Assembly: GCA_964016885.1 (NCBI GenBank)
Contig: OZ024747.1
Span: 10,292,001-10,356,000 of the forward strand
Source of the DNA: Eledone cirrhosa
Taxonomy: Eukaryota
DNA: 64,000 nucleotides
Direction of reading: 5' to 3'
Numbering within the stretch: the stretch's first letter is position 1; every line of letters starts with the position of its first letter. The notes under the pieces were generated by a model. The model did not search any database. It saw only the letters and a program-made list of their open reading frames with translations, and had not been told where the DNA came from. Positions 8,147 to 50,800 of this stretch are shown here, piece by piece. A program made the translations under genes and the position numbers.

Positions 8147-37207
<29,061 letters not shown>

Positions 37208-37455: not shown

Positions 37456-37516
37456 ATCACGTGACCACCGGTAACAATATGGCGGTTATACAGATCTGGT
37501 AGCCGCCATATTGTTA
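37456..37516. promoter_or_regulatory. BRD8 upstream promoter: E-box TCACGTGA plus two inverted YY1-type motifs
   Basis: ATCACGTGAC at 37456-37465. TAACAATATGGCGG (37472-485) and CCGCCATATTGTTA (37503-516) are perfect reverse complements, ~270-310 bp upstream of the BRD8 ATG. Confidence 0.55.
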
Positions 37517-38010: not shown

Positions 38011-38722
38011 GGAAGGAGTAAATAAGGGCAGATCTGGTTGTGTGGGTAATTAGAAGAAAGGACTATTAAAAGCCATAAATGAGAGGAAACGCAAGGACTC
38101 TAACGTCATAGATTTGTAAGGAAAAAAAAAAGGTAATAAAGATATTTTAACTACGGAAATTCAAATAATTATTTCTAATTTAGGCACAAGACCAGTAATT
38201 TGAGAGGGAGGGGGTAAAGTGTATATGCTGGTTTATCAACCTTCCCGCACTGTGTTGAGGTTTCTCACTACTTTCTTTGATATCACGCGTTCAAATGCGT
38301 GACTTTCGCGCACTGAGTCACTATCTTCTGGGCGCCGAAGTGTTTCTGCCGTGAATTTGAGGTAACTTTGAGAAACTGGTCACATTGGGGATTAAGATGG
38401 TAAAGACTTCTTGATATTAGTTTTCTGCTGAAAAGTGGCGTTGGATCACAGCAAGCCCGATTCAGAACAGAAACTAAGGAGTCACGGCAAAAATAAGTGA
38501 AAGGATTTTCACCACTTGACGGCCGTCTTCGAAGAAGATCACTGACAACTATGTCATCCAAATACCGTGGCAATTCCCCAGCTTGTTTGGAGTGGTATGT
38601 AGCTTAATCATATGACATAGCTTTATAAAGCAACTTGTTTCAAGCAATATCAAATTATTTGATTGCACTCGTCTCTAGTAATACTTCGTATTAAAATATA
38701 GATCCTTCTTAAAATATTCTGA

Positions 38723-38833
38723 GAGTCAGACAGGGTGTCATGTCGTATAAGTCGTAACAAGGTAGACGGCGACATGTCTCACGTATAGTACGTGATTACC
38801 CGATTCATCATGTCTTCTGAACACAGAAGGATC
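38723..38833 (-). ncRNA. SNORD13: U13/SNORD13-type box C/D snoRNA (guide for 18S rRNA helix-45 ac4C)
   Basis: The minus strand reads GAUCCUUCUGUGUUCAGAAGAC-AUGAUGA(box C, 38811-38805)-AUCGGGUAAUCACGUACUAUACGUGAGACAUGUCGCCGUCU-ACCUUGUUACGACUU(38763-38749)-AUACGACAUGACACCCUGU-CUGA(box D, 38729-38726). The 5' GAUCCUUC and GUUCA are antisense to 18S GAAGGAUC and UGAAC. The internal 15-mer is antisense to 18S AAGUCGUAACAAGGU. Order and spacing match human U13 as I recall it (AUCCUUUUGUAGUUCA..UGAUGA..GGGU..ACCUUGUUACGAC..ACCC.UCUGA). Confidence 0.9.
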
Positions 38834-38899
38834 TGTTCACAAAATATTACGGCTTGGTATTTATTCATTCTTTATTAAAATTTTTCGATAGAATATCTA

Positions 38900-38907
38900 A
38901 TTTGCAT
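38900..38907 (-). promoter_or_regulatory. Octamer motif (ATGCAAAT) about 70 bp upstream of SNORD13; possible snRNA-type promoter element
   Basis: The + strand reads ATTTGCAT at 38900-38907. The snoRNA is intergenic, so it probably has its own promoter. An 8-mer in AT-rich DNA can also occur by chance. Confidence 0.35.
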
Positions 38908-39181
38908 AATTTCTTAAAATTGCTCTTTATGTTATTAATTTTCAAAAGAAAATTACTTACATTTAATAATATGAGTCATTTTAAATATTAAGCAATATTA
39001 TTTGATTTATAAAGCCGTCACCAACATACTCATAGTATTTAATAATAATATTTTATCGAAGAATATATTTAAAAATTATATCTGTAAAGGAAAAGGAAGG
39101 GAGGTAACTCGTTCCACTACTTCAACTGTTATTTTAAACCAGTGAATCAGTGCTGTCAATAACGACGGTAACAGCATTGAA

Positions 39182-39838
39182 TATTAACTATAATGAAGGA
39201 AGGTCTGCGGGATTGCATCCAGAATATATTTTTTTACCCCATTTATAAAATAAGTTGGATTACTTTGAATAAATAATGAAGGAATATTACATAATTTATG
39301 TGCTAAATTTCATGGCTGTTGATTAGATATATTTTATAGCTTAATCTTTAAAATTATCAAATGTCAACACTTCCGGTTAGCGGCGGGATATCGTCCAGAA
39401 TATATTTTTTTACCCCATTTATAAAATAAGTTGGATTACTTTGAATAAATAATGAATGAATATTACATAATTTATGCGCTAAATTTCGTGGCTGTTGATT
39501 AAATATATTTTATAGCTTAATCTTTAAAATTCACTTCTTTAAAATTATCAAATGTCAACACTTCCGGTTAGCGGCCGTTATATTATAACACTTATAATCG
39601 CATATATTTCTGTCGCTAATTTTCTCCTAATGCAGTTTATATATGTCTTTTTTTAATATATCATGGATTACTGATTACAGAAGACTGTAACATAGGCTTT
39701 GTTCAATTTCTGTGTATATTGTCAATTACGATTTTATTTGATGTATCATATCTACATGCATATATATTTGTGTATAATATCAATATACACACTACACATG
39801 CGAGCAGAAAACAACCCGTAGGGTGGTTTTTCTGCTAG
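39182..39838 (+). mobile_element. Non-autonomous Helitron, 657 bp, with an internal ~170-bp tandem duplication
   Basis: Ends with hairpin ACCC-gta-GGGT followed by ..CTGCTAG(39838)|T and starts after A at TATTAACTATAATG. No TSD. The uninterrupted host sequence appears in reverse orientation at ~50470-50580. Internal duplication ~39207-39385 / ~39383-39575. Confidence 0.75.
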
Positions 39839-40504
39839 TGTATTTAATTTTTAGAATCCACAATTGGTATCCCACATATATCAGGATTACTGGATATATG
39901 TACAATCATACAAACCGAGATTCATGATTTGATAAATTCGTGGTTCGAATAGAAGAATCCCTAGAGTTTATGGACGTGATTAAAGATAAAAATGATAATT
40001 TAGTACTTTATTTCTAGGCTATAATTCAGCATATATGTACAAATGACATACAGAATTAAATAAGGAGTAACTTTCAAGAAATAACTATTTACAGGGACAA
40101 ATGTAGGTTAGAACCCAGGAACTTATTGGAAAGTGAATTTCTTATTGTAGCAAAATGACTGAGGTAGAAAATGCAGTGTGTGTATGTTTGTGTGTAGATT
40201 TTTAAGTGTTTCAGACGGATCATCATCATCATCACTGTTTTACGTCCGTTCTTCCACGCTAGCATGGGTTAGACGGGTTGTCCTGTTGTGGGCAGTGTCT
40301 GGTCGGCTGACCATGCCTTGCTCATACAGGAACTGATTTGGCTTGATTTCTACAGCTGGATGCCCTTCCTAACACCAACCTCATTTACAGTGAGTGCTGG
40401 GTGCTTTTTTGTGGCGCCTACACGTCCACTTTACAGTGTGGGCTGGGTGCTTTTTTGCCGTGGCACCTCCACGACCACCTTGCGGTGGGTGTGTGGGGGC
40501 ATAT

Positions 40505-40542
<38 letters not shown>

Positions 40543-41159
40543 AGAGAGAGAGAGACATGTGACATATTATTATGGTTGTATGTGAATGATATATTAATTT
40601 AAATAGGTTTTCTAAACTTTCCTACATGTTAAAAATAATAATAATTGCTAGATTCCATAAAAATATAAAATATGAAAAGGTTTTGAGATTAAACTCCAAC
40701 TGAGAAAGTTCTTTGTAAAGAAAAAACTATAAGATTATTGTTTTTTATTTATCAAATGATGATGGCAAATTGACAGAGTTGTTAGAACATCAGATAGAAT
40801 ACTTTGTGATATTTGTTTCAGCTCCCTACTTTCTAGATTCAAATCCTGCTGAGGTCAACTTTGTCTTTCATCCATTTGAGGTCGCTAAAAACAAGTACCA
40901 GTCAAGTACTGGGGTAGATTCTTCCTCTTATATCTCTTTCTTGATTCCATTCTCTTACTCTTTCTATCCTTCTCTGGGGAAATATGTTGTGTTCAGACCT
41001 GGAGAGGATTGAGCTCTGCCAGGTTTTAAAATGCCCTAGAAATGTTGTATGCGATTACTGTGCCCCTGTGACTCCCTCAGGAGTTACAGGACCAAGCATG
41101 CATTTATCTAATGTATAACAATTTCTTTTCAGAAATTAAAAAAAATAATTTTTAGGAAT

Positions 41160-43245
41160 ATGGCAAGCAAGTGACAAAGAAGGCAGTGCTTGAATTTGAA
41201 CAGTGCATCGCAACCAATCCTGACAGTAAGGTGTTCTGGAAATATGTTCATTCAAAGCAGAGACCTCACTCTCCAGTTGGTCCTCTTCGCAATCCCCACA
41301 CAAGCCAGATCACTGACGATCCCAAGGAATGCGCAGAACTCATTGCTGAGTGCTATGCAAGTATTTTTACTGTTGAAAACCAGAATGTACCATCTCCACC
41401 ATCTCTAACATCAAATTCCATAACAACTATGGAATTTACACCTGCAATGTTGCGACGTCACCTTAAGAATAAGCGCAACTATGCCTCCCCTTGTCTTGAT
41501 GGTGTGACATACCTGCTTCTCAAACGTGGCGGGTATTTCCTTTTGCGCCAGCTTTCTTTCTTCTTTCAATACTGTCTCAACAATGGTGCTACTCCGGAGC
41601 AGTGGAAAACTGCCAGTGTCATTCCCCTGTTCAAAAAGGGCAACCGCATGTCACCTGTCAACTATCGTCCAGTCAGTCTTACTAGCTGTATGGCCAAACT
41701 GATGGAATCCTGTGTCAGAGAAACACTTTGGAACTTCTGGAGCTCTCACAGCCTCATCCGGCCCTCACAGTTTGGATTTATCCCTAACTCCAGCTGCTGT
41801 GATCAGCTTATCGAGTTCCTTGAGGACATCACCCGGATCACTGACAGCGGCTCATGGGTGGATGTTGTTTACCTTGACTTTGCTAAGGCTTTTAATTCTG
41901 TGCCACACAAAAGACTTATGGCAAAACTCTCTGCAATGGGTGTGAGGGATGATCTTTTCGACTGGTTGAAATCCTTCATTCTCAGCCGAAAGGAAGTAGT
42001 CACGGTTCTAGGACAGCATTCTTCACCATATGAGATGTCATCTGGTGTACCACAGGGATCTGTTCTTGGTCCTCTTTTGTTTGTGGCATATATTAATGAC
42101 ATAGATGCCAACTTACAGAATGCCACGGTACTAAAATATGCAGATGACATCAAGCTGTACCTTGAAATCAAAAGGACTGATCCTGAAATTTACAACTCTT
42201 TCCTACAATCAGACCTGGACACAATGCAGCAATGGATCACAGACTGGCAACTGAAGCTGGCTGTGGACAAGTGTACCACCATGCATTTTGGAAGGAAAAA
42301 TCCAGCGTCTACATACTCCCTCCACAACACTGATATCAAAAAGTCCTCTTGTGAACGTGACCTGGGCATTACTGTCAGCAACGATTTGCGTTGGACAAAG
42401 CATGTCTCTAAGATTGTCAAGAAGGCCGAGGGTGTCTTGGCATCACTCAGCAAGACCTTTGTTAGCCGCTCTCCAGCCATCTATTTAAAACTGTATACAG
42501 CTATGGTGCGACCACACTTGGAATTCGCATCATCAGTCTGGAACCCCTATCTTGCTCGGAACATTGACCTCCTGGAAACTGTTCAGAGACGTGCAACCAA
42601 GCGCATACCCTCCATCAGACACCTACCATACTCTGAACGCCTTGCTTCCCTGGGCATGGATTCATTGAAGCTCAGACGTCTGGCAATGGACTTGGTGAAT
42701 ACCCACAAAGTTTTTAACCATCTCGCCAATTGCAACCCTGAGCGCCTCTTTGATCTCCATGTGTCTAACACACGTGGACATGCCTACAAGATCAGAAAAC
42801 AGCACAGCTCCCATGACTTTCGTAGACATTTTTTCACGCTCAGAGTTGCTGAAGCATGGAACAAACTGCCTGCGTCAATTGTTAGCTGCCGAGACACTGC
42901 ATCCTTTAAGACACTCATGCTTCCCGAAATACGCCAAAACTACACCTGATGTACCCCTTCCATACACATGCACACGTGTGTATCATGACTCGTGCACTTT
43001 TCATTTTACTGATGTTTGTGCATTGCCCTATGTACTGTACATGCACTTTTTTGATGAGTTGTGGTGCACCTGGGCACTGTACACAATATTTCATTATTGT
43101 TATTGTTATTATATCATGACTCATACACTGTTCATTTTCCTGACATTTGTACATTATTCTATGTACTATACATGCACCTTTGATGAGATGTAGTGCACCT
43201 GAGCACTGTACACAATAATTTCATTATTATTATTATTATTATTAT
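41160..43245 (+). mobile_element. 5'-truncated CR1-clade LINE with uninterrupted RT ORF and (ATT)n tail
   Basis: ORF 41171-42949 plus a 3' UTR with a duplicated terminal motif (GTGCACCTG.GCACTGTACACAAT) and an ATT microsatellite tail. Confidence 0.92.
41171..42949 (+). CDS. CR1-type reverse transcriptase ORF2 fragment (592 aa; no APE endonuclease, starts at GTG)
   Basis: Motifs NYRPVSLTS, QFGF, YLDFAKAFNSVPH, SGVPQGSVLGPLLF, YADD, ERDLG, LYTAMVRPHLE, VQRRATK, TRGH, FFTLRV..WNKLP. Confidence 0.88.
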   Translation: MTKKAVLEFEQCIATNPDSKVFWKYVHSKQRPHSPVGPLRNPHTSQITDDPKECAELIAECYASIFTVENQNVPSPPSLTSNSITTMEFTPAMLRRHLKNKRNYASPCLDGVTYLLLKRGGYFLLRQLSFFFQYCLNNGATPEQWKTASVIPLFKKGNRMSPVNYRPVSLTSCMAKLMESCVRETLWNFWSSHSLIRPSQFGFIPNSSCCDQLIEFLEDITRITDSGSWVDVVYLDFAKAFNSVPHKRLMAKLSAMGVRDDLFDWLKSFILSRKEVVTVLGQHSSPYEMSSGVPQGSVLGPLLFVAYINDIDANLQNATVLKYADDIKLYLEIKRTDPEIYNSFLQSDLDTMQQWITDWQLKLAVDKCTTMHFGRKNPASTYSLHNTDIKKSSCERDLGITVSNDLRWTKHVSKIVKKAEGVLASLSKTFVSRSPAIYLKLYTAMVRPHLEFASSVWNPYLARNIDLLETVQRRATKRIPSIRHLPYSERLASLGMDSLKLRRLAMDLVNTHKVFNHLANCNPERLFDLHVSNTRGHAYKIRKQHSSHDFRRHFFTLRVAEAWNKLPASIVSCRDTASFKTLMLPEIRQNYT

Positions 43246-44490: not shown

Positions 44491-44823
44491 AACAACAATA
44501 ATAAAATAAGAATGAAAAAGAACAATAAAAAATTAATTGCATTTATTGTATATAATTTGTAGACATATTTATTTAAAATTTACATGGGGGTGGGGGAAGG
44601 GGTGAACGGGGGAGGAAAAAGAAAGACAGACAGACAGCAGGGAAAGTCTGTAAATATACATCTGCTGCCAAAGTCCAAATTATGTTGAAATACGAGAGAG
44701 GTTAACGAGAAATAAATAATTTAATTTCAATAATAACTGGTCAGAAGGAAGTTAGCAGTCCCCCTCCCCTAATACAAACAATGGCAATAGCGGGACTTTG
44801 TTTGCTGAGTGAAAGACAGGACA

Positions 44824-47800
44824 TCAGGATATCATTGGATATTGGTAAAGAAGGTTCTCTTGTTGTATTGGGGCTAGATTGGTTCCACTCTTGCGGACGT
44901 CACACGTGATTGAACGGATCTGGAATATTTGGAAAAATAGGATTAAGATCAAAGAAAAATGGTGTTTAACAAGAGAGAGAGAGGCAGTGACAGTGGGAGT
45001 TTGGTTCTTGTGTTCGGACCTGGTATATATGTGTATATAGCTGTATAAAAAAGTGCAGGGCAATGAAAATTGACGGAAGCTGCGGAGTGGGTAGACCAAG
45101 AAAAACCTGGGACGAGGTGATAAAAATTGACCGTGCTCACTTACACCTCTCGAAGACAATGACACTGGATCAAGACCTTTGACACCATGCAGTTGTACAG
45201 AAGACCCGACTACCATCGCATACAAACCTACAGTCAGTAGGCACCTCTTAAATCAATGTACACCCCACCCCATCCTCCTTCTCCCATTCTGTCCACTGTG
45301 TTGATGACAACAGTCCACACTGTAAGGTGGCCGTGTAGGAGACAGTGAAAAGGCTCCCAGTCCACACTGTAAATGTAATTGGTGTTAGGAAGGGCATCCA
45401 GCTGTAAAAAAAACCTGCCAGAGACGCTTCTGTGTGAGCGAGACATGGTCTCCCGACCATTCCTGCATCAAATGGAACAAAACCGTCTAACCCATGCTGG
45501 CGTGGAAGATGGACTTAAACGATGATGATGATGATGACCACACCACACATTTTATGATAGTAAATAACAGACAAATGTGTACTTCCTTTTTTAAGATGGT
45601 AGGAGGGTGAGATATGAAGATTTATGTAAAGAAAGACAGTAGTGAGTTACTTACAAGTTGTGTGAAGAAACCAGCTTCCCGGGGTTTCTCTGAATATCTG
45701 TCAAACTGATCCAAACTGTCTTGTAACTTCAGTGTGAGAGTATCATAGTTACTTTGGACCACTTCTAATACCTACAATGAGGAGACAATAGCAACTGGCT
45801 AATAGAAGTCTTACTTTATTTAAACAATTTAAACATGCGTATAGAGCTAGTAAGCCATGACAGACTAGGGGAAGTATCTAGTACTTCTTACAGTTGATAA
45901 CAAATTAATTTAAACATCCCTATAGAGCTAGTAGTTTACTTGCTGTTGTTTTCATAGTAATAGTCGTATTGTAGCAGCAGTAGTAGTAGTAGTAATAATA
46001 ATAATAGTATCGGCATAGCTAAGAAGTTTGCTCCGCAATCATTAGTTCCTGGGTTCAATTCTACTGTGTGATATTTGGTATTTTGGGCATCATTTGTCAT
46101 CGACTTAGGTTGACCCATACGTTTTCAGTAACATTTAGTAGATGGACGTTTGAAGGCTCCAAATTGAGTTCTGTCCAATGTCCTAACATTTATCGGTTCT
46201 ACAGACATCTTTCCTAGCAAAGAAATAATGAAAATAACAGAGCTCTTACTTGTTTCTCTGTGAGGGACGACAAATGGTTCTGTGCAGCCCAAGAATCCAC
46301 TTTAGGGGAGAAATGGTTTATTATGGCTCTGAAAGACAAATAATATACCAATATCAATATCAGATGCACACAAACAAATGATGCATATCTCTCTCTCTCT
46401 ATATATATATATATAAATATATATAAATATATATATCTATATATATATCATCATCATCGTTTAACGTCCGTGTTCCACGCTTGCATGGGTTTGGAATATA
46501 AATATATATATATAAATATATATCTATATATATATATAAATATCTATATCTATATATATATAAATATATATATCTATATCTATATATATATATATATATA
46601 TCTATATATATAGATATATCTATATAGATATATCTATATCTCTATATATATATCTATATCTATATATAATATATATATATATATAGAGATATAGATATAT
46701 ATATGTGTGTGTGATGACCCATACAACAGTTGCTAGCAAGGAAAATGGACATTAAATAATGATGACAGTGATGATGATGATGGTGGTGACAATGATGATG
46801 ATGGTGATGATGACAATGATGATGACAATGACAGTGATGATGATGGTGATGACAATGACAGTGATGATGATGACAGTGATGGTGATGACAGTGATGGTGA
46901 TGACAACGATGATGATGACAGACAGTGAAGTTACCTGATATTTCCGAGGTGGTTCTTCAATTTAGCAGCAGAATCTTTCCATTCTCCTTCATTGGTGGTA
47001 TACCTCAGAGCTGGGTAAGAGAAACCATAGAAGAATTAGTTGACAATTATTGTGGTAGTAGGAATATTCCAAACATCAGCTTCGTTAATTATCCCCTTCG
47101 AGGCATGTGGCCTAATGGTAAGTGTGTTGGACTTATGATCATAATGTCGTGGGTTTGATTCCTGGACTGGGCTGTGTGTTGTGTTCTTGAGCAAAACACT
47201 TTGTTTCGTGTTGCTCCCGTATACTCAGCCGAAGATGAATACCAGTAATACCTGCGGGTTTAACCCTGCGATTGACTGGCGTCCTGTCCAGGGGAAGTGT
47301 GGTACTCTCAGTTGCTTCACACCATGGAAACTGGGATAAACACCGGCCTGATAAGTTTCTGGGCTTGAGACAGACTTTAACCCTGTGATGGACTGGCGTC
47401 TTGTCCAGGGGGAGTCTTGTACTCTTAGCCAGATGAGCCTCCAGGCTTGAGACAGACTTTAGAATTAGTTATCTCATTACACTCTTCAACTTTTTAAAAC
47501 TAATTGATACACATTGGCTGTATATTTCACTAGAGATATAGTAACAGTGTTATATAGGCTGTATATTTCACTAGAGATATAGTAACAGTGTTATATAGGC
47601 TGTATATTTCACTAGAGATATAGTAACAGTGTTATATAGGCTGTATATTTCACTAGAGATATAGTAACAGTGTTATATAGGCTGTATATTTCACTAGAGA
47701 TCTGGTAACAGTGTTACATAGGCTGTATATTTCACTAGAGATATAGTAACAGTGTTATATAGGCTGTATATTTCACTAGAGATATAGTAACAGTGTTATA

Positions 47801-50800
47801 TAGGCTGTATATTTCACTAGAGATATAGTAACAGTGTTATATAGGCTGTATATTTCACTAGAGATATAGTAACAGTGTTATATAGGCTGTGTATTTCACT
47901 AGAGATATGGTAACAGTGTTATATAGGCTGTATATTTCACTAGAGATATAGTAACAGTATTACATAGGTTGTGTATTTCACTAGAGATATAGTAACAGTG
48001 TTATATAGGCTGTATATTTCACTAGAGATATAGTAACAGTGTTACATAGGCTGTATATTTCACTAGAGATATGGTAACAGTGTTACATAGGCTGTGTATT
48101 TCACTAGAGATATGGTAATAAGCAATGAACCAAGTAAACAACTTACCCATAGAATAAACATTGTCAAAGACTTGGTGCATTCGAATGATTTCATAGTAAA
48201 GCTCATCATAACTAGTTGGATTAGGTAAGAATGTGTCACCATAGGTGATAAACAAGTTGAAGATATTGACAACCTGTATGGAATAAAACAATAAACATTT
48301 TGATATCAGCATAAGATAATTTTAATATGAGCACAAAATAATTTTGATATGAATATGAAAAAAATTTGACATGGGAACAAGATGAGTGATACACATTTAA
48401 GTATGAGTCCAAGATAATAATGAAAATTATTGTGTACAGTGCTCAGGCACACTACAACTCATCAAAGGTGCATGTATAGTAATAGAATAATATACAAATG
48501 TCAGGAAAGTGAACAGTGTATGATAATTTGGATATGAGCAGTAAATACTTTAATATGAGCCCTGGATTGGTAGAATGAAGAGAGAATGAAAAGAGAGAGA
48601 GAATATGAGAGAGAGAGAGTATGAGTGAGAGAGAGAATGAGTGAGAGAGAGAGTATGAGTGAGAGAGAGAATGAGTGAGAGAGAGAGTATGAGTGAGAGA
48701 GAGAGTATGAGTGAGAGAGAGAATGAGTGAGCGAGAGAATGAGTGAGCGAGAGAATGAGTGAGCGAGAGAATGAGTGAGCGAGAGAGTGTGAGCGAGAGA
48801 GTGTGAGTGAGAGAGAATGAGTGAGAGAGAGAATGAAAAGAGACAGAGTATGAGTGAGAGAGAGAATGAGTGAGAGAGAGTGTGAGTGAGAGAGAGAATG
48901 AAAAGAGAGAGAGTATGAGTGAGAGAGAGAGTGTGAGTGAGAGAGAGAATGAAAAGAGACAGAGTGTGAGTGCGAGAGAGAATGAAAAGAGAGAGAGTAT
49001 GAGTGAGAGAGAGAATGAGTGAGAGAGAGAGTGTGAGTGAGAGAGAGAATGAGTGGGAGAGAGAGTGTGAGTGAGAGAGAGAATGAAAAGAGAGAGAGTG
49101 TGAGTGAGAGAGAGAATGAAAAGAGAGAGTGTGAGTGAGAATGCTAAACATGAAATTAACAGCTAAAATTATATTTTCTTTCTATGATGATGATGATGAT
49201 GATGATGTGGTAATTTCATTTGTGTCTGTTTATAAAAATGAAAGTATTTCTCCAACTCACTTTCGAAGCAACATGAAATATGTTGTGTTTCTTCACCAAA
49301 TAGGATTCATGACTGAGAACAAACTTGAGTAGATTCATTAATGCTGGGAATTAAAGAGAAACAACAACGAATGTAATTAATTTAAAGGTGGTGTTAGTCA
49401 TGTGACATGTTATTCTTTTTTACCTGTAATTCTGAACTGGTTGTTGCTGTTGTTTAACCTCAGCTCAGCACTGATTCAACAAACCTATAATCAGAGGTAT
49501 TTCTGCCATGACCACCCAACATTTTTTTCTATATGCAAAGAATCCAGGATCACGTTATTTAGCATGTCCTTTTCATTTGGGGGAGATTTGGCTGCTATTT
49601 CTAGCAAGTTTTAGGCTCCTGCATTGGTTATTTCTTGACCGGTGGTGTTATTTAGTAGACAGTAGTGGTGAGTGTATGCGTTGGTATGGGCTGGACAAGT
49701 TGCTAGGGTCCAAGTCAGTACTTATGTGGAGATACTGCACTATTAGATGAGTCAGAGGACCATGCCCAGCTCATACATTCTAATTCTTGGTATGGTTTCT
49801 ATGGCTGGATGTCCTTCCTAACACCAACCACTTTACCGAGTGTACTGAGTGTACTCTGTCATGGCAGCAGCACTTGTCATGTCCTCAACAATACTAAAGA
49901 CCTCACTTTGTTGTTATTTGGACATCAACCATTCTATAGAGTGTGGCCTCAACACTTTAACAATATTATCCCACCATCCCAACCATACTTTCTAAAAACT
50001 GAACAACCAATCACATTCCATTCCTTACCAGTCCAAAGATCTTTCCAGGAATATTGTAAGCGCACTCGGCATTTCTTTTGGTAACACAGTACTCGATGAA
50101 TGATTCCCAAGCAGCGCCTGTTGATTGAATAAAATTTAATTAGAGAGAGAAAAAGAGAAAGATTTCTTATGTCAGTCATGTTGCTACAATAAGAAGTTCA
50201 CTTTCCAACCACAAGTTCCTGGGTTATAATCCTACATTTGTCTCAGTAAATAGTTAATTCTCCTAAATTACTCCTACATTTAACCCTGTATGTTGTTTGT
50301 ACATATATACTGAATATTTATGTATAATTATATCCTAGAAATAGATTATTAAAATATCCTCCTTATCTTTAATCACTTCCACTGGTCAGTAATCAACATA
50401 AACTATAGGGTTTCTCTTATGTAAACTATTAATTTATCAAAACGTCAATTTCTCAGTTTATATGATTGTTCATATATTCAGTAATCCTGGTATATATGGT
50501 ATACGAATCCTGGACTCCAAAAATTAAATACATTCAATGTTATTACCGTCATTATTGACGGCACTGGTCTACTGGTAAATAAATAAATGACAAATATTTA
50601 CAGGTGTAATAAATATTTACAGGTGTAATAGATACTTACAGGTGTAATTCTGAAGGAAAGTTCTTCATTAAATGACATAGAATAAATTCCACCATCAGAT
50701 CTGGAAAGAGATTTCACAGTAAATTACATTGGTTCTAATCCAAAAGTTATTTTAGACTAGGTACTGAATGAAGGCATGTCCCTTAAGGGTTAAAGTGTTG

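What the first reader, a model, noticed from the sequence alone, without database searches (positions are those of the whole stretch)
38723..38833. Stand-alone U13/SNORD13 snoRNA upstream of BRD8
Seen: boxes C and D, a 15-nt perfect antisense to the universally conserved 18S sequence AAGUCGUAACAAGGU, and a 5' extension (GAUCCUUC..GUUCA) antisense to the other side of helix 45. Established: this bipartite layout defines SNORD13/snR45, which guides NAT10/Kre33 acetylation of the helix-45 cytidine rather than 2'-O-methylation. Inference: this is an independently transcribed cephalopod ortholog, since it is intergenic with an octamer ~70 bp upstream. It is invisible to the ORF track and easily missed by annotation.
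Basis: partly seen in the sequence, partly recalled or inferred. Interest (0 to 1): 0.72.

Follow-up and report, generated by a model that had tools for sequence, protein, structure and literature searches.

The report
Octopus U13 (SNORD13) acetylation-guide snoRNA gene
This is an intact octopus copy of the known small nucleolar RNA U13 (SNORD13), which likely guides the enzyme NAT10 to acetylate one cytosine near the end of 18S ribosomal RNA; it is ordinary biology, except that it lacks the promoter motif shared by this genome's other small nuclear RNA genes.

Summary
Confirmed, and ordinary. Window 38832-38724 (-) matches Rfam snoU13 above the curated cut-off (49.7 vs 46 bits, E 2.9e-7). It is the only intact copy found; three decayed copies lie elsewhere. 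It sits 1.5 kb upstream of the BRD8 start codon and 6 kb beyond the ARMH3 stop. The octamer argument fails: 25 U1/U2/U3/U5/U12 genes of this genome share another promoter signature (AATTA, CA[GT]T, TATA), of which U13 has no element, and only 1 of 25 carries an octamer. Expression and acetylation are untested. Molluscan SNORD13 is published (PMC9226516), and the scan noted octopus U13 genes before on other DNA (e1-8861652, e1-10338280). New member of a known family; only its promoter is an open question.

The parts
38724..38833 (-). U13/SNORD13 snoRNA gene, about 110 nt; 5' end at 38834-38832 not mapped
   Evidence: Rfam RF01210 38832-38724, 49.7 bits, E 2.9e-7
38818..38833 (-). 5' guide (18S-A/18S-B type), 16 nt, antisense to the 3' side of 18S helix 45
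   Evidence: Duplex with own 18S end, 16 of 16 nt paired, -22.6 kcal/mol
38805..38811 (-). Box C (ATGATGA)
   Evidence: sequence
38798..38801 (-). 5' arm of the short stem next to the C/D motif (pairs with 38736-38733)
   Evidence: constrained and free folds
38779..38795 (-). 7-bp hairpin
   Evidence: folds; two compensatory pair changes against homolog L044
38770..38776 (-). 5' arm of the 7-bp stem that closes the guide loop (pairs with 38745-38739)
   Evidence: folds; two compensatory pair changes and the same 24-nt loop as L044
38749..38763 (-). Internal guide (18S-C type), 15-nt perfect antisense to 18S just 5' of helix 45; 3 more pairs after one mismatch
   Evidence: own rDNA, 3 of 3 stretches
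38739..38745 (-). 3' arm of the guide-closing stem
38733..38736 (-). 3' arm of the short stem next to the C/D motif
38726..38729 (-). Box D (CTGA)
   Evidence: sequence
38700..38724 (-). 3' flank complementary to the 5' guide (stem IV/V type; 10-bp perfect arm at 38709-38700), predicted to mask the guide in a precursor
   Evidence: -18.7 kcal/mol vs shuffle mean -9.3, 0 of 300 shuffles as good; pairing; 13 of 20000 random 40-nt windows reach 10 bp, self-matches included
38900..38907 (-). Octamer ATGCAAAT; present, role unsupported
   Evidence: 1 of 25 snRNA/U3 genes has one; 0.026 expected in 300 nt of local composition
37192..37207 (-). First coding exon of the neighbouring BRD8 gene (context)
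   Evidence: ATG and donor join in frame to the exon at 35088 that matches the N-terminus of P0001, named BRD8 of Octopus sinensis; bromodomain exon at 10538-10846
44824..48321 (-). Last coding exons of the upstream ARMH3 gene (context); stop near 44824
   Evidence: Pfam ARMH3_C on three exons; the last exon itself had no Pfam match and is assigned from the reading frame and recalled C-terminal likeness; AATAAA at 44573 and 44547

Best explanation
This is an intact U13/SNORD13 box C/D snoRNA gene whose RNA likely pairs on both sides of the CCG in helix 45 of 18S pre-rRNA and so likely lets NAT10 acetylate the middle cytidine. Shown in the sequence: boxes C and D, two guides complementary to the genome's own 18S end, three internal stems, a 3' flank complementary to the 5' guide, and a NAT10-type acetyltransferase gene in the genome. 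Inferred from human, zebrafish and fly SNORD13: a 3'-extended precursor folds its flank onto the 5' guide, is trimmed, assembles core C/D proteins, opens helix 45 and presents the cytidine equivalent to human C1842; loss would remove one ac4C with little phenotype. Inferred with less confidence (about 0.7): it is its own RNA polymerase II unit with a capped 5' extension, driven by a promoter that differs from the one of this genome's U1/U2/U3/U5/U12 genes.
For: Rfam snoU13 above cut-off over the full model. Guides pair with the own 18S end and leave the CCG-containing segment unpaired. Three-stem core identical in layout to homolog L044 (68.9 bits snoU13) with four compensatory pair changes and the same 24-nt guide loop; precursor fold z -3.81, 1 of 200 shuffles as good. 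Guide-masking 3' flank as described in PMC9670809 section 5. Only intact copy found by four genome searches and by model R1 over the window plus 100 kb each side. PF13718 (NAT10-type GNAT) matches on four clustered exons, all over the cut-off. SNORD13 knockouts abolish helix-45 ac4C in human, zebrafish and fly (PMC9226516 abstract and section 24).
Against: Neither transcript nor acetylation was observed. No element of the genome's snRNA promoter signature lies upstream (0 of 3), although a profile score was borderline (reached by 2.4% of window and 5.6% of local background). The genome-wide scorer put the locus under the cut-off (34.7 bits) and scored only 50 of 196265 candidates, so a further, diverged gene may be missed. 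No second cephalopod sequence was available for a conservation test. UTR introns of BRD8 or a non-coding host transcript are not excluded.
Confidence: 0.88

Rival explanations
1. Same RNA and same function, but it is cut out of a longer transcript (a 5'-UTR intron of an upstream-starting BRD8 isoform, ARMH3 read-through or a non-coding host), the long 5'/3'-flank stem protecting the 5' guide from trimming in place of a cap.
For: No snRNA-type promoter element; same strand as both neighbours; the flank can pair with all 16 guide nt; many invertebrate SNORD13 genes lie in introns (PMC9226516 section 23).
Against: Intron-located insect SNORD13 genes are still TMG-capped, i.e. independently transcribed (PMC9226516 section 24). 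Two YY1-like motifs (consensus recalled) at 37512 and 37476, 2 of only 3 in the window, suggest that BRD8 starts downstream of the snoRNA; ARMH3 has AATAAA signals 250-280 nt after its stop.
Confidence: 0.2
2. A silent, recently displaced copy of U13; the working gene lies elsewhere or is missing from the assembly.
Against: Every element is intact, including the 3' flank stem that a copy of the mature RNA would not carry; the other three copies are broken in boxes or guides; no other intact copy.
Confidence: 0.07
3. A box C/D RNA that guides 2'-O-methylation or only chaperones 18S 3'-end processing, not acetylation.
For: A D'-like ATGA lies 7 nt after the 15-nt guide (sequence); early work tied U13 to pre-rRNA processing (review PMC7277114, passages).
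Against: The guide ends 19 nt before box D; the ATGA is inside a stem arm and has no room for a C' partner before box D; the only rDNA complement near box D is 8 nt, a length that occurs several times per 10 kb by chance. SNORD13 deletion did not disturb processing in human cells (PMC9226516 abstract).
Confidence: 0.04
4. A scrap of inverted rDNA or a chance match.
For: 18S ends are scattered over this genome (20 matches on 8 contigs).
Against: The two complementary blocks are 62 nt apart here but 19 nt apart in rDNA, with box C and two stems between them; full-length Rfam match.
Confidence: 0.01

Closest known systems
SNORD13/U13 (Rfam RF01210, clan CL00081); human and zebrafish guide of NAT10 for 18S ac4C1842 (PMC9226516, PMC9670809)
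   Same: Boxes C and D, 5' extension guide plus internal guide flanking the helix-45 CCG, three internal stems, 3' flank that can mask the 5' guide, about 110 nt.
   Different: 5' guide pairs without internal mismatch (16 of 16 nt, one 2-nt rRNA bulge); stem sequences differ by compensatory changes; the upstream region lacks this genome's snRNA promoter signature.
Molluscan and brachiopod SNORD13 candidates (A. californica, L. anatina in Suppl. Fig. S1 of PMC9226516)
   Same: Same two-guide pairing scheme to the same 18S segment.
   Different: Sequences of these genes were not visible (Suppl.
Drosophila Or-CD1/SNORD13 (PMC9226516 section 24)
   Same: Internal guide and predicted target cytidine.
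   Different: The fly RNA lacks the 5' guide; this one keeps it.
Yeast snR45 and plant snoR105/snoR108 (RF00304, same clan)
   Same: Bipartite pairing around helix 45.
   Different: The window's best clan match is RF01210; snR45 was not compared directly.

Membership tests
SNORD13/U13 (RF01210) | Score at or above Rfam's gathering cut-off | tested here: met
   49.7 vs 46 bits, full model; 34.7 bits with the genome-wide scorer
SNORD13/U13 (RF01210) | Canonical boxes C and D | tested here: met
   38811-38805 and 38729-38726
SNORD13/U13 (RF01210) | Internal guide (18S-C) antisense to 18S 5' of the target | tested here: met
   15 nt perfect against own rDNA in 3 of 3 stretches
SNORD13/U13 (RF01210) | 5' extension guide (18S-A/B) antisense to the 3' side of helix 45 | tested here: met
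   16 of 16 nt paired, -22.6 kcal/mol
SNORD13/U13 (RF01210) | Target CCG present in 18S and left between the two duplexes | tested here: met
   20 exact CCG-type 18S ends in the genome (the pattern required CCG, so variants would not show); duplexes
SNORD13/U13 (RF01210) | Three internal stems | tested here: met
   four compensatory changes against L044, read from the folds
SNORD13/U13 (RF01210) | 3' flank that pairs with the 5' guide (stems IV/V; recurrent, not universal) | tested here: met
   0 of 300 shuffles as stable; in metagenome look-alikes 6 of 18 with a box D reached p<=0.05
SNORD13/U13 (RF01210) | NAT10 present in the organism | tested here: met
   PF13718 on four clustered exons, over cut-off; other NAT10 domains not searched
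SNORD13/U13 (RF01210) | Independent transcription with a TMG cap | not testable with these tools
   needs 5'-end or cap data
SNORD13/U13 (RF01210) | Required for ac4C at helix 45 | not testable with these tools
   needs ac4C-seq with knockdown
snRNA-type (U1/U2/U3/U5/U12) polymerase II genes of this genome | Upstream signature AATTA (-102..-82), CA[GT]T (-60..-48), TATA (-36..-22) | tested here: not met
   25, 25 and 24 of 25 reference genes (motifs defined on these same genes, 5 families) vs 0 of 3 for U13 at four start sites and no alternative start within 400 nt; profile score borderline
snRNA-type (U1/U2/U3/U5/U12) polymerase II genes of this genome | Octamer as shared upstream element | tested here: not met
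   1 of 25 genes within 700 nt
snRNA-type (U1/U2/U3/U5/U12) polymerase II genes of this genome | Downstream 3'-box-like motif | tested here: inconclusive
   16 of 25 genes have it, 0 of 6 U3 and not U13, so its absence is normal for snoRNA genes here
Methylation-guide box C/D snoRNA | 10 or more nt antisense ending directly before box D or a D' box with a C' partner | tested here: not met
   guide ends 19 nt before box D; only an 8-nt complement near box D in three 10-kb rDNA stretches; snRNA and tRNA targets not searched

The most novel reading that the evidence does not exclude
Octopus SNORD13 has left the shared snRNA promoter system used by U1, U2, U3, U5 and U12 in this genome and is made either from an octamer-driven promoter of its own or by excision from a longer transcript, with the fully guide-masking 3' stem standing in for cap protection: a third expression route for a 5'-extended acetylation guide.
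Probability: 0.2. Interest if true: 0.45.

Novelty: new member of a known kind. Interest (0 to 1): 0.2.

Why it matters
Little beyond annotation: it places the helix-45 acetylation guide in an octopus genome as a single intact gene, which makes a knockdown or ac4C-seq test in a cephalopod simple. The one open point is how it is transcribed, since it lacks the promoter signature of the genome's other small nuclear RNA genes; that signature, read here from 25 genes, may also be of use for expressing small RNAs in cephalopods.

Tried and rejected
RNA evidence: no RNA holder listed; the three runs laid are contigs of one sample of unknown kind, so nothing on expression either way. Second intact U13 gene: none in the window, none in 100 kb on each side, none among 10 matches of one genome pattern (9 others lack 5' guide and box D; 7 of them scanned, 0 Rfam hits) or 20 matches of a looser one (control 18; 12 of 20 fetched plus one followed up). 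U8 as a further promoter comparator: no match, uninformative. An 80-column promoter profile was too noisy to decide (reference genes left out by family scored -9.3 to +11.5, U13 -5.0). A structure model from alignment A1 (window plus 9 of 36 metagenome hits chosen by eye) had no consensus pairs because the alignment is out of register in the stems; it was used as a sequence model only, and no formal covariation count was made. PDB search with a BRD8 exon gave nothing. Literature: no paper holds octopus+snoRNA+SNORD13 or cephalopod+snoU13; a search for mollusc snRNA promoters gave 3 papers, none on the point. 'Octopus' does not occur in the main text or in the held, cut supplement of PMC9226516 or in the preprint's main text; Suppl. 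Data S1 and the supplements of PMC9670809 could not be seen and may list octopus genes.

Full report
Observation. The minus strand of 38833-38723 carries a 5' extension, box C (38811-38805), a 15-nt element antisense to 18S (38763-38749) and box D (38729-38726); an octamer lies at 38907-38900. A scan of the whole window against Rfam gave one match at gathering level: snoU13 RF01210, 38832-38724, 49.7 bits against a cut-off of 46, E 2.9e-7, whole model covered. The genome-wide scorer found the same locus as its only match but at 34.7 bits, under the cut-off, having scored 50 of 196265 candidates. Contigs of three runs, all one sample and possibly the source of the assembly, cover 38173-39215 in one piece with no difference at single-copy depth.

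Guides. I took the target from the genome itself: 20 exact 18S ends were found, 8 of them read. The internal guide pairs over 15 nt perfectly and 3 nt more after a mismatch; the 5' guide pairs over all 16 nt of 38833-38818 with a 2-nt bulge on the rRNA side; the segment with the helix-45 CCG stays between the two duplexes. No other site of the window matches 11 or more nt of the last 62 nt of this region. The arrangement is the one drawn for human, A. californica and other species in Suppl. Fig. S1 of PMC9226516. In three 10-kb rDNA stretches the 15-mer is the only complement present in all three that is longer than 8 nt; nothing of methylation-guide length ends at box D.

Structure. With boxes and guide held single-stranded, the RNA folds into a 4-bp stem beside the C/D motif, a 7-bp hairpin and a 7-bp stem that closes a 24-nt loop holding the guide; the free fold gives the same stems (z -3.81, 1 of 200 shuffles as good). 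A pattern scan of metagenome contigs returned 36 loci, 5 of which match the U13 clan at E<=0.01 and 18 of which have a box D at the right distance. The best, L044 (68.9 bits), has the same three stems and the same 24-nt loop, with four pairs changed on both sides relative to the window (read from the folds; no formal covariation count was possible because the alignments were out of register). PMC9670809 (sections 5, 6, 7 and 17 read) describes these three stems and also a 3' extension of the precursor that masks the 5' guide. The window has it: 38724-38700 pairs with the whole 5' guide, including a perfect 10-bp arm, -18.7 kcal/mol against a shuffle mean of -9.3, 0 of 300 as good; 13 of 20000 random windows reach 10 bp, self-matches included.

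Neighbourhood. The downstream gene on the same strand is BRD8: one exon finds a protein named BRD8 of Octopus sinensis at 90% identity, that protein maps exon by exon from 35088 to 8150, a bromodomain exon is at 10538-10846, and a 16-nt first coding exon with ATG at 37207 joins in frame. The upstream gene is ARMH3 (Pfam on three exons), ending near 44824 with AATAAA at 44573 and 44547. Between lie a LINE reverse transcriptase frame (41156-42949) and a high-copy repeat (about 39246-39888). The snoRNA is therefore outside both coding regions; UTR introns and non-coding hosts are untested. Two YY1-like motifs (consensus recalled) at 37512 and 37476 hint that BRD8 starts downstream of the snoRNA; this is weak inference.

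Copies. A DNA search found two further places: L002 (79% over 97 nt; 5' guide truncated, boxes C and D and the internal guide changed) and L003 (50-nt fragment). A loose pattern gave 20 matches against 18 for the control; one of them, L116, resembles the window between the pattern blocks (0 of 20000 shuffles as good) but has no box D and did not reach E<=1 with model R1, so it is probably a third decayed copy. No second intact gene was found in the window, in 100 kb on each side, or by two patterns. These searches are lower bounds.

Promoter. I compared 25 genes of this genome (6 each of U1, U2, U3, U5 and 1 U12, the best-scoring of 42, 48, 15, 43 and 1 matches). They share AATTA near -90, CA[GT]T near -56 and TATA near -30 (25, 25, 24 of 25; motifs defined by eye on these same genes, effective number about 13), a combination met at 0.02% of background positions. 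U13 has none of the three at any of four start sites and no alternative start within 400 nt gives all three; 0 of 3 is what 72-74% of random positions show. A long profile was inconclusive (U13 -5.0; left-out reference genes -9.3 to +11.5; reached by 2.4% of window and 5.6% of local background). The octamer is rare by chance (0.026 expected in 300 nt; 3 in the window) but only 1 of the 25 genes has one within 700 nt. It is thus no evidence that this gene uses the snRNA machinery; it could still be a real element of a different promoter.

Mechanism. Shown: guides, boxes, stems, flank, and a NAT10-type gene (PF13718 on four clustered exons). From established work (PMC9226516: abstract, introduction, sections 23 and 24, first part of the cut supplement): SNORD13 is required for one ac4C in 18S helix 45 in human, zebrafish and fly, its loss has little effect, and insect genes are capped even inside introns. 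Inference: this RNA does the same in an octopus (0.88), most likely as its own polymerase II unit (about 0.7), else excised from a longer transcript (0.2). A silent copy (0.07), a methylation or processing role (0.04) and an rDNA scrap (0.01) are unlikely.

Known and novel. It passes every sequence-testable feature of SNORD13. The family is reported from Mollusca (A. californica). Two library searches found no paper with octopus or cephalopod SNORD13, but Suppl. The review PMC7277114 (passages) and PMC3177221, PMC13652810 and the preprint of PMC9226516 (passages) were seen only as passages.

Noticed in passing
L013-L037 (U1, U2, U3, U5, U12 genes of G000): A shared three-part upstream signature (AATTA near -90, CA[GT]T near -56, TATA near -30) and, in U1/U2/U5/U12, a downstream A-rich motif ending in AGA; likely this octopus's snRNA promoter and 3' box. 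One literature search found no description for molluscs.
   Followed up: partly
L050, L072 (also L057, L063, L067, L069): SNORD13-like genes in metagenome contigs; L050 and L072 end in G4T4 telomere-like repeats and several carry an ACCCATAA-like motif about 55 nt upstream, like the Oxytricha PSE in PMC3177221, whose main text does not mention U13. Probably ciliate SNORD13; L050, L057, L067 and L072 had no Rfam match at E<=0.01.
   Followed up: partly
L041, L046, L047, L049, L056, L059, L060: A group of ~120-nt two-guide box C/D look-alikes with three stems that Rfam did not match at E<=0.01; organism not determined.
   Followed up: no
L002:1497-1604, L003:1501-1550, L116:930-1024: Three decayed U13 copies elsewhere in the genome.
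   Followed up: yes
window 39220-39565: A direct duplication of about 177 nt inside a very high-copy repeat (39246-39888) 400 nt upstream of the snoRNA.
   Followed up: no
window 41156-42949 (+): An open 597-aa LINE reverse transcriptase frame between ARMH3 and the snoRNA.
   Followed up: no
window 37476-37512: Two inverted YY1-like motifs (10-bp arms) 270-300 nt before the BRD8 start codon.
   Followed up: partly
window 38340-38600 (+): A single-copy, CpG-containing stretch with two splice-donor-like sites on the plus strand just 3' of the snoRNA; could be exons of a divergent non-coding transcript that would put U13 antisense in an intron (sequence only).
   Followed up: no
G000, several contigs: 18S ends are dispersed over 8 contigs (20 matches), one of 8 read being a truncated insertion (L008); U1, U2 and U5 lie in long tandem arrays.
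   Followed up: no
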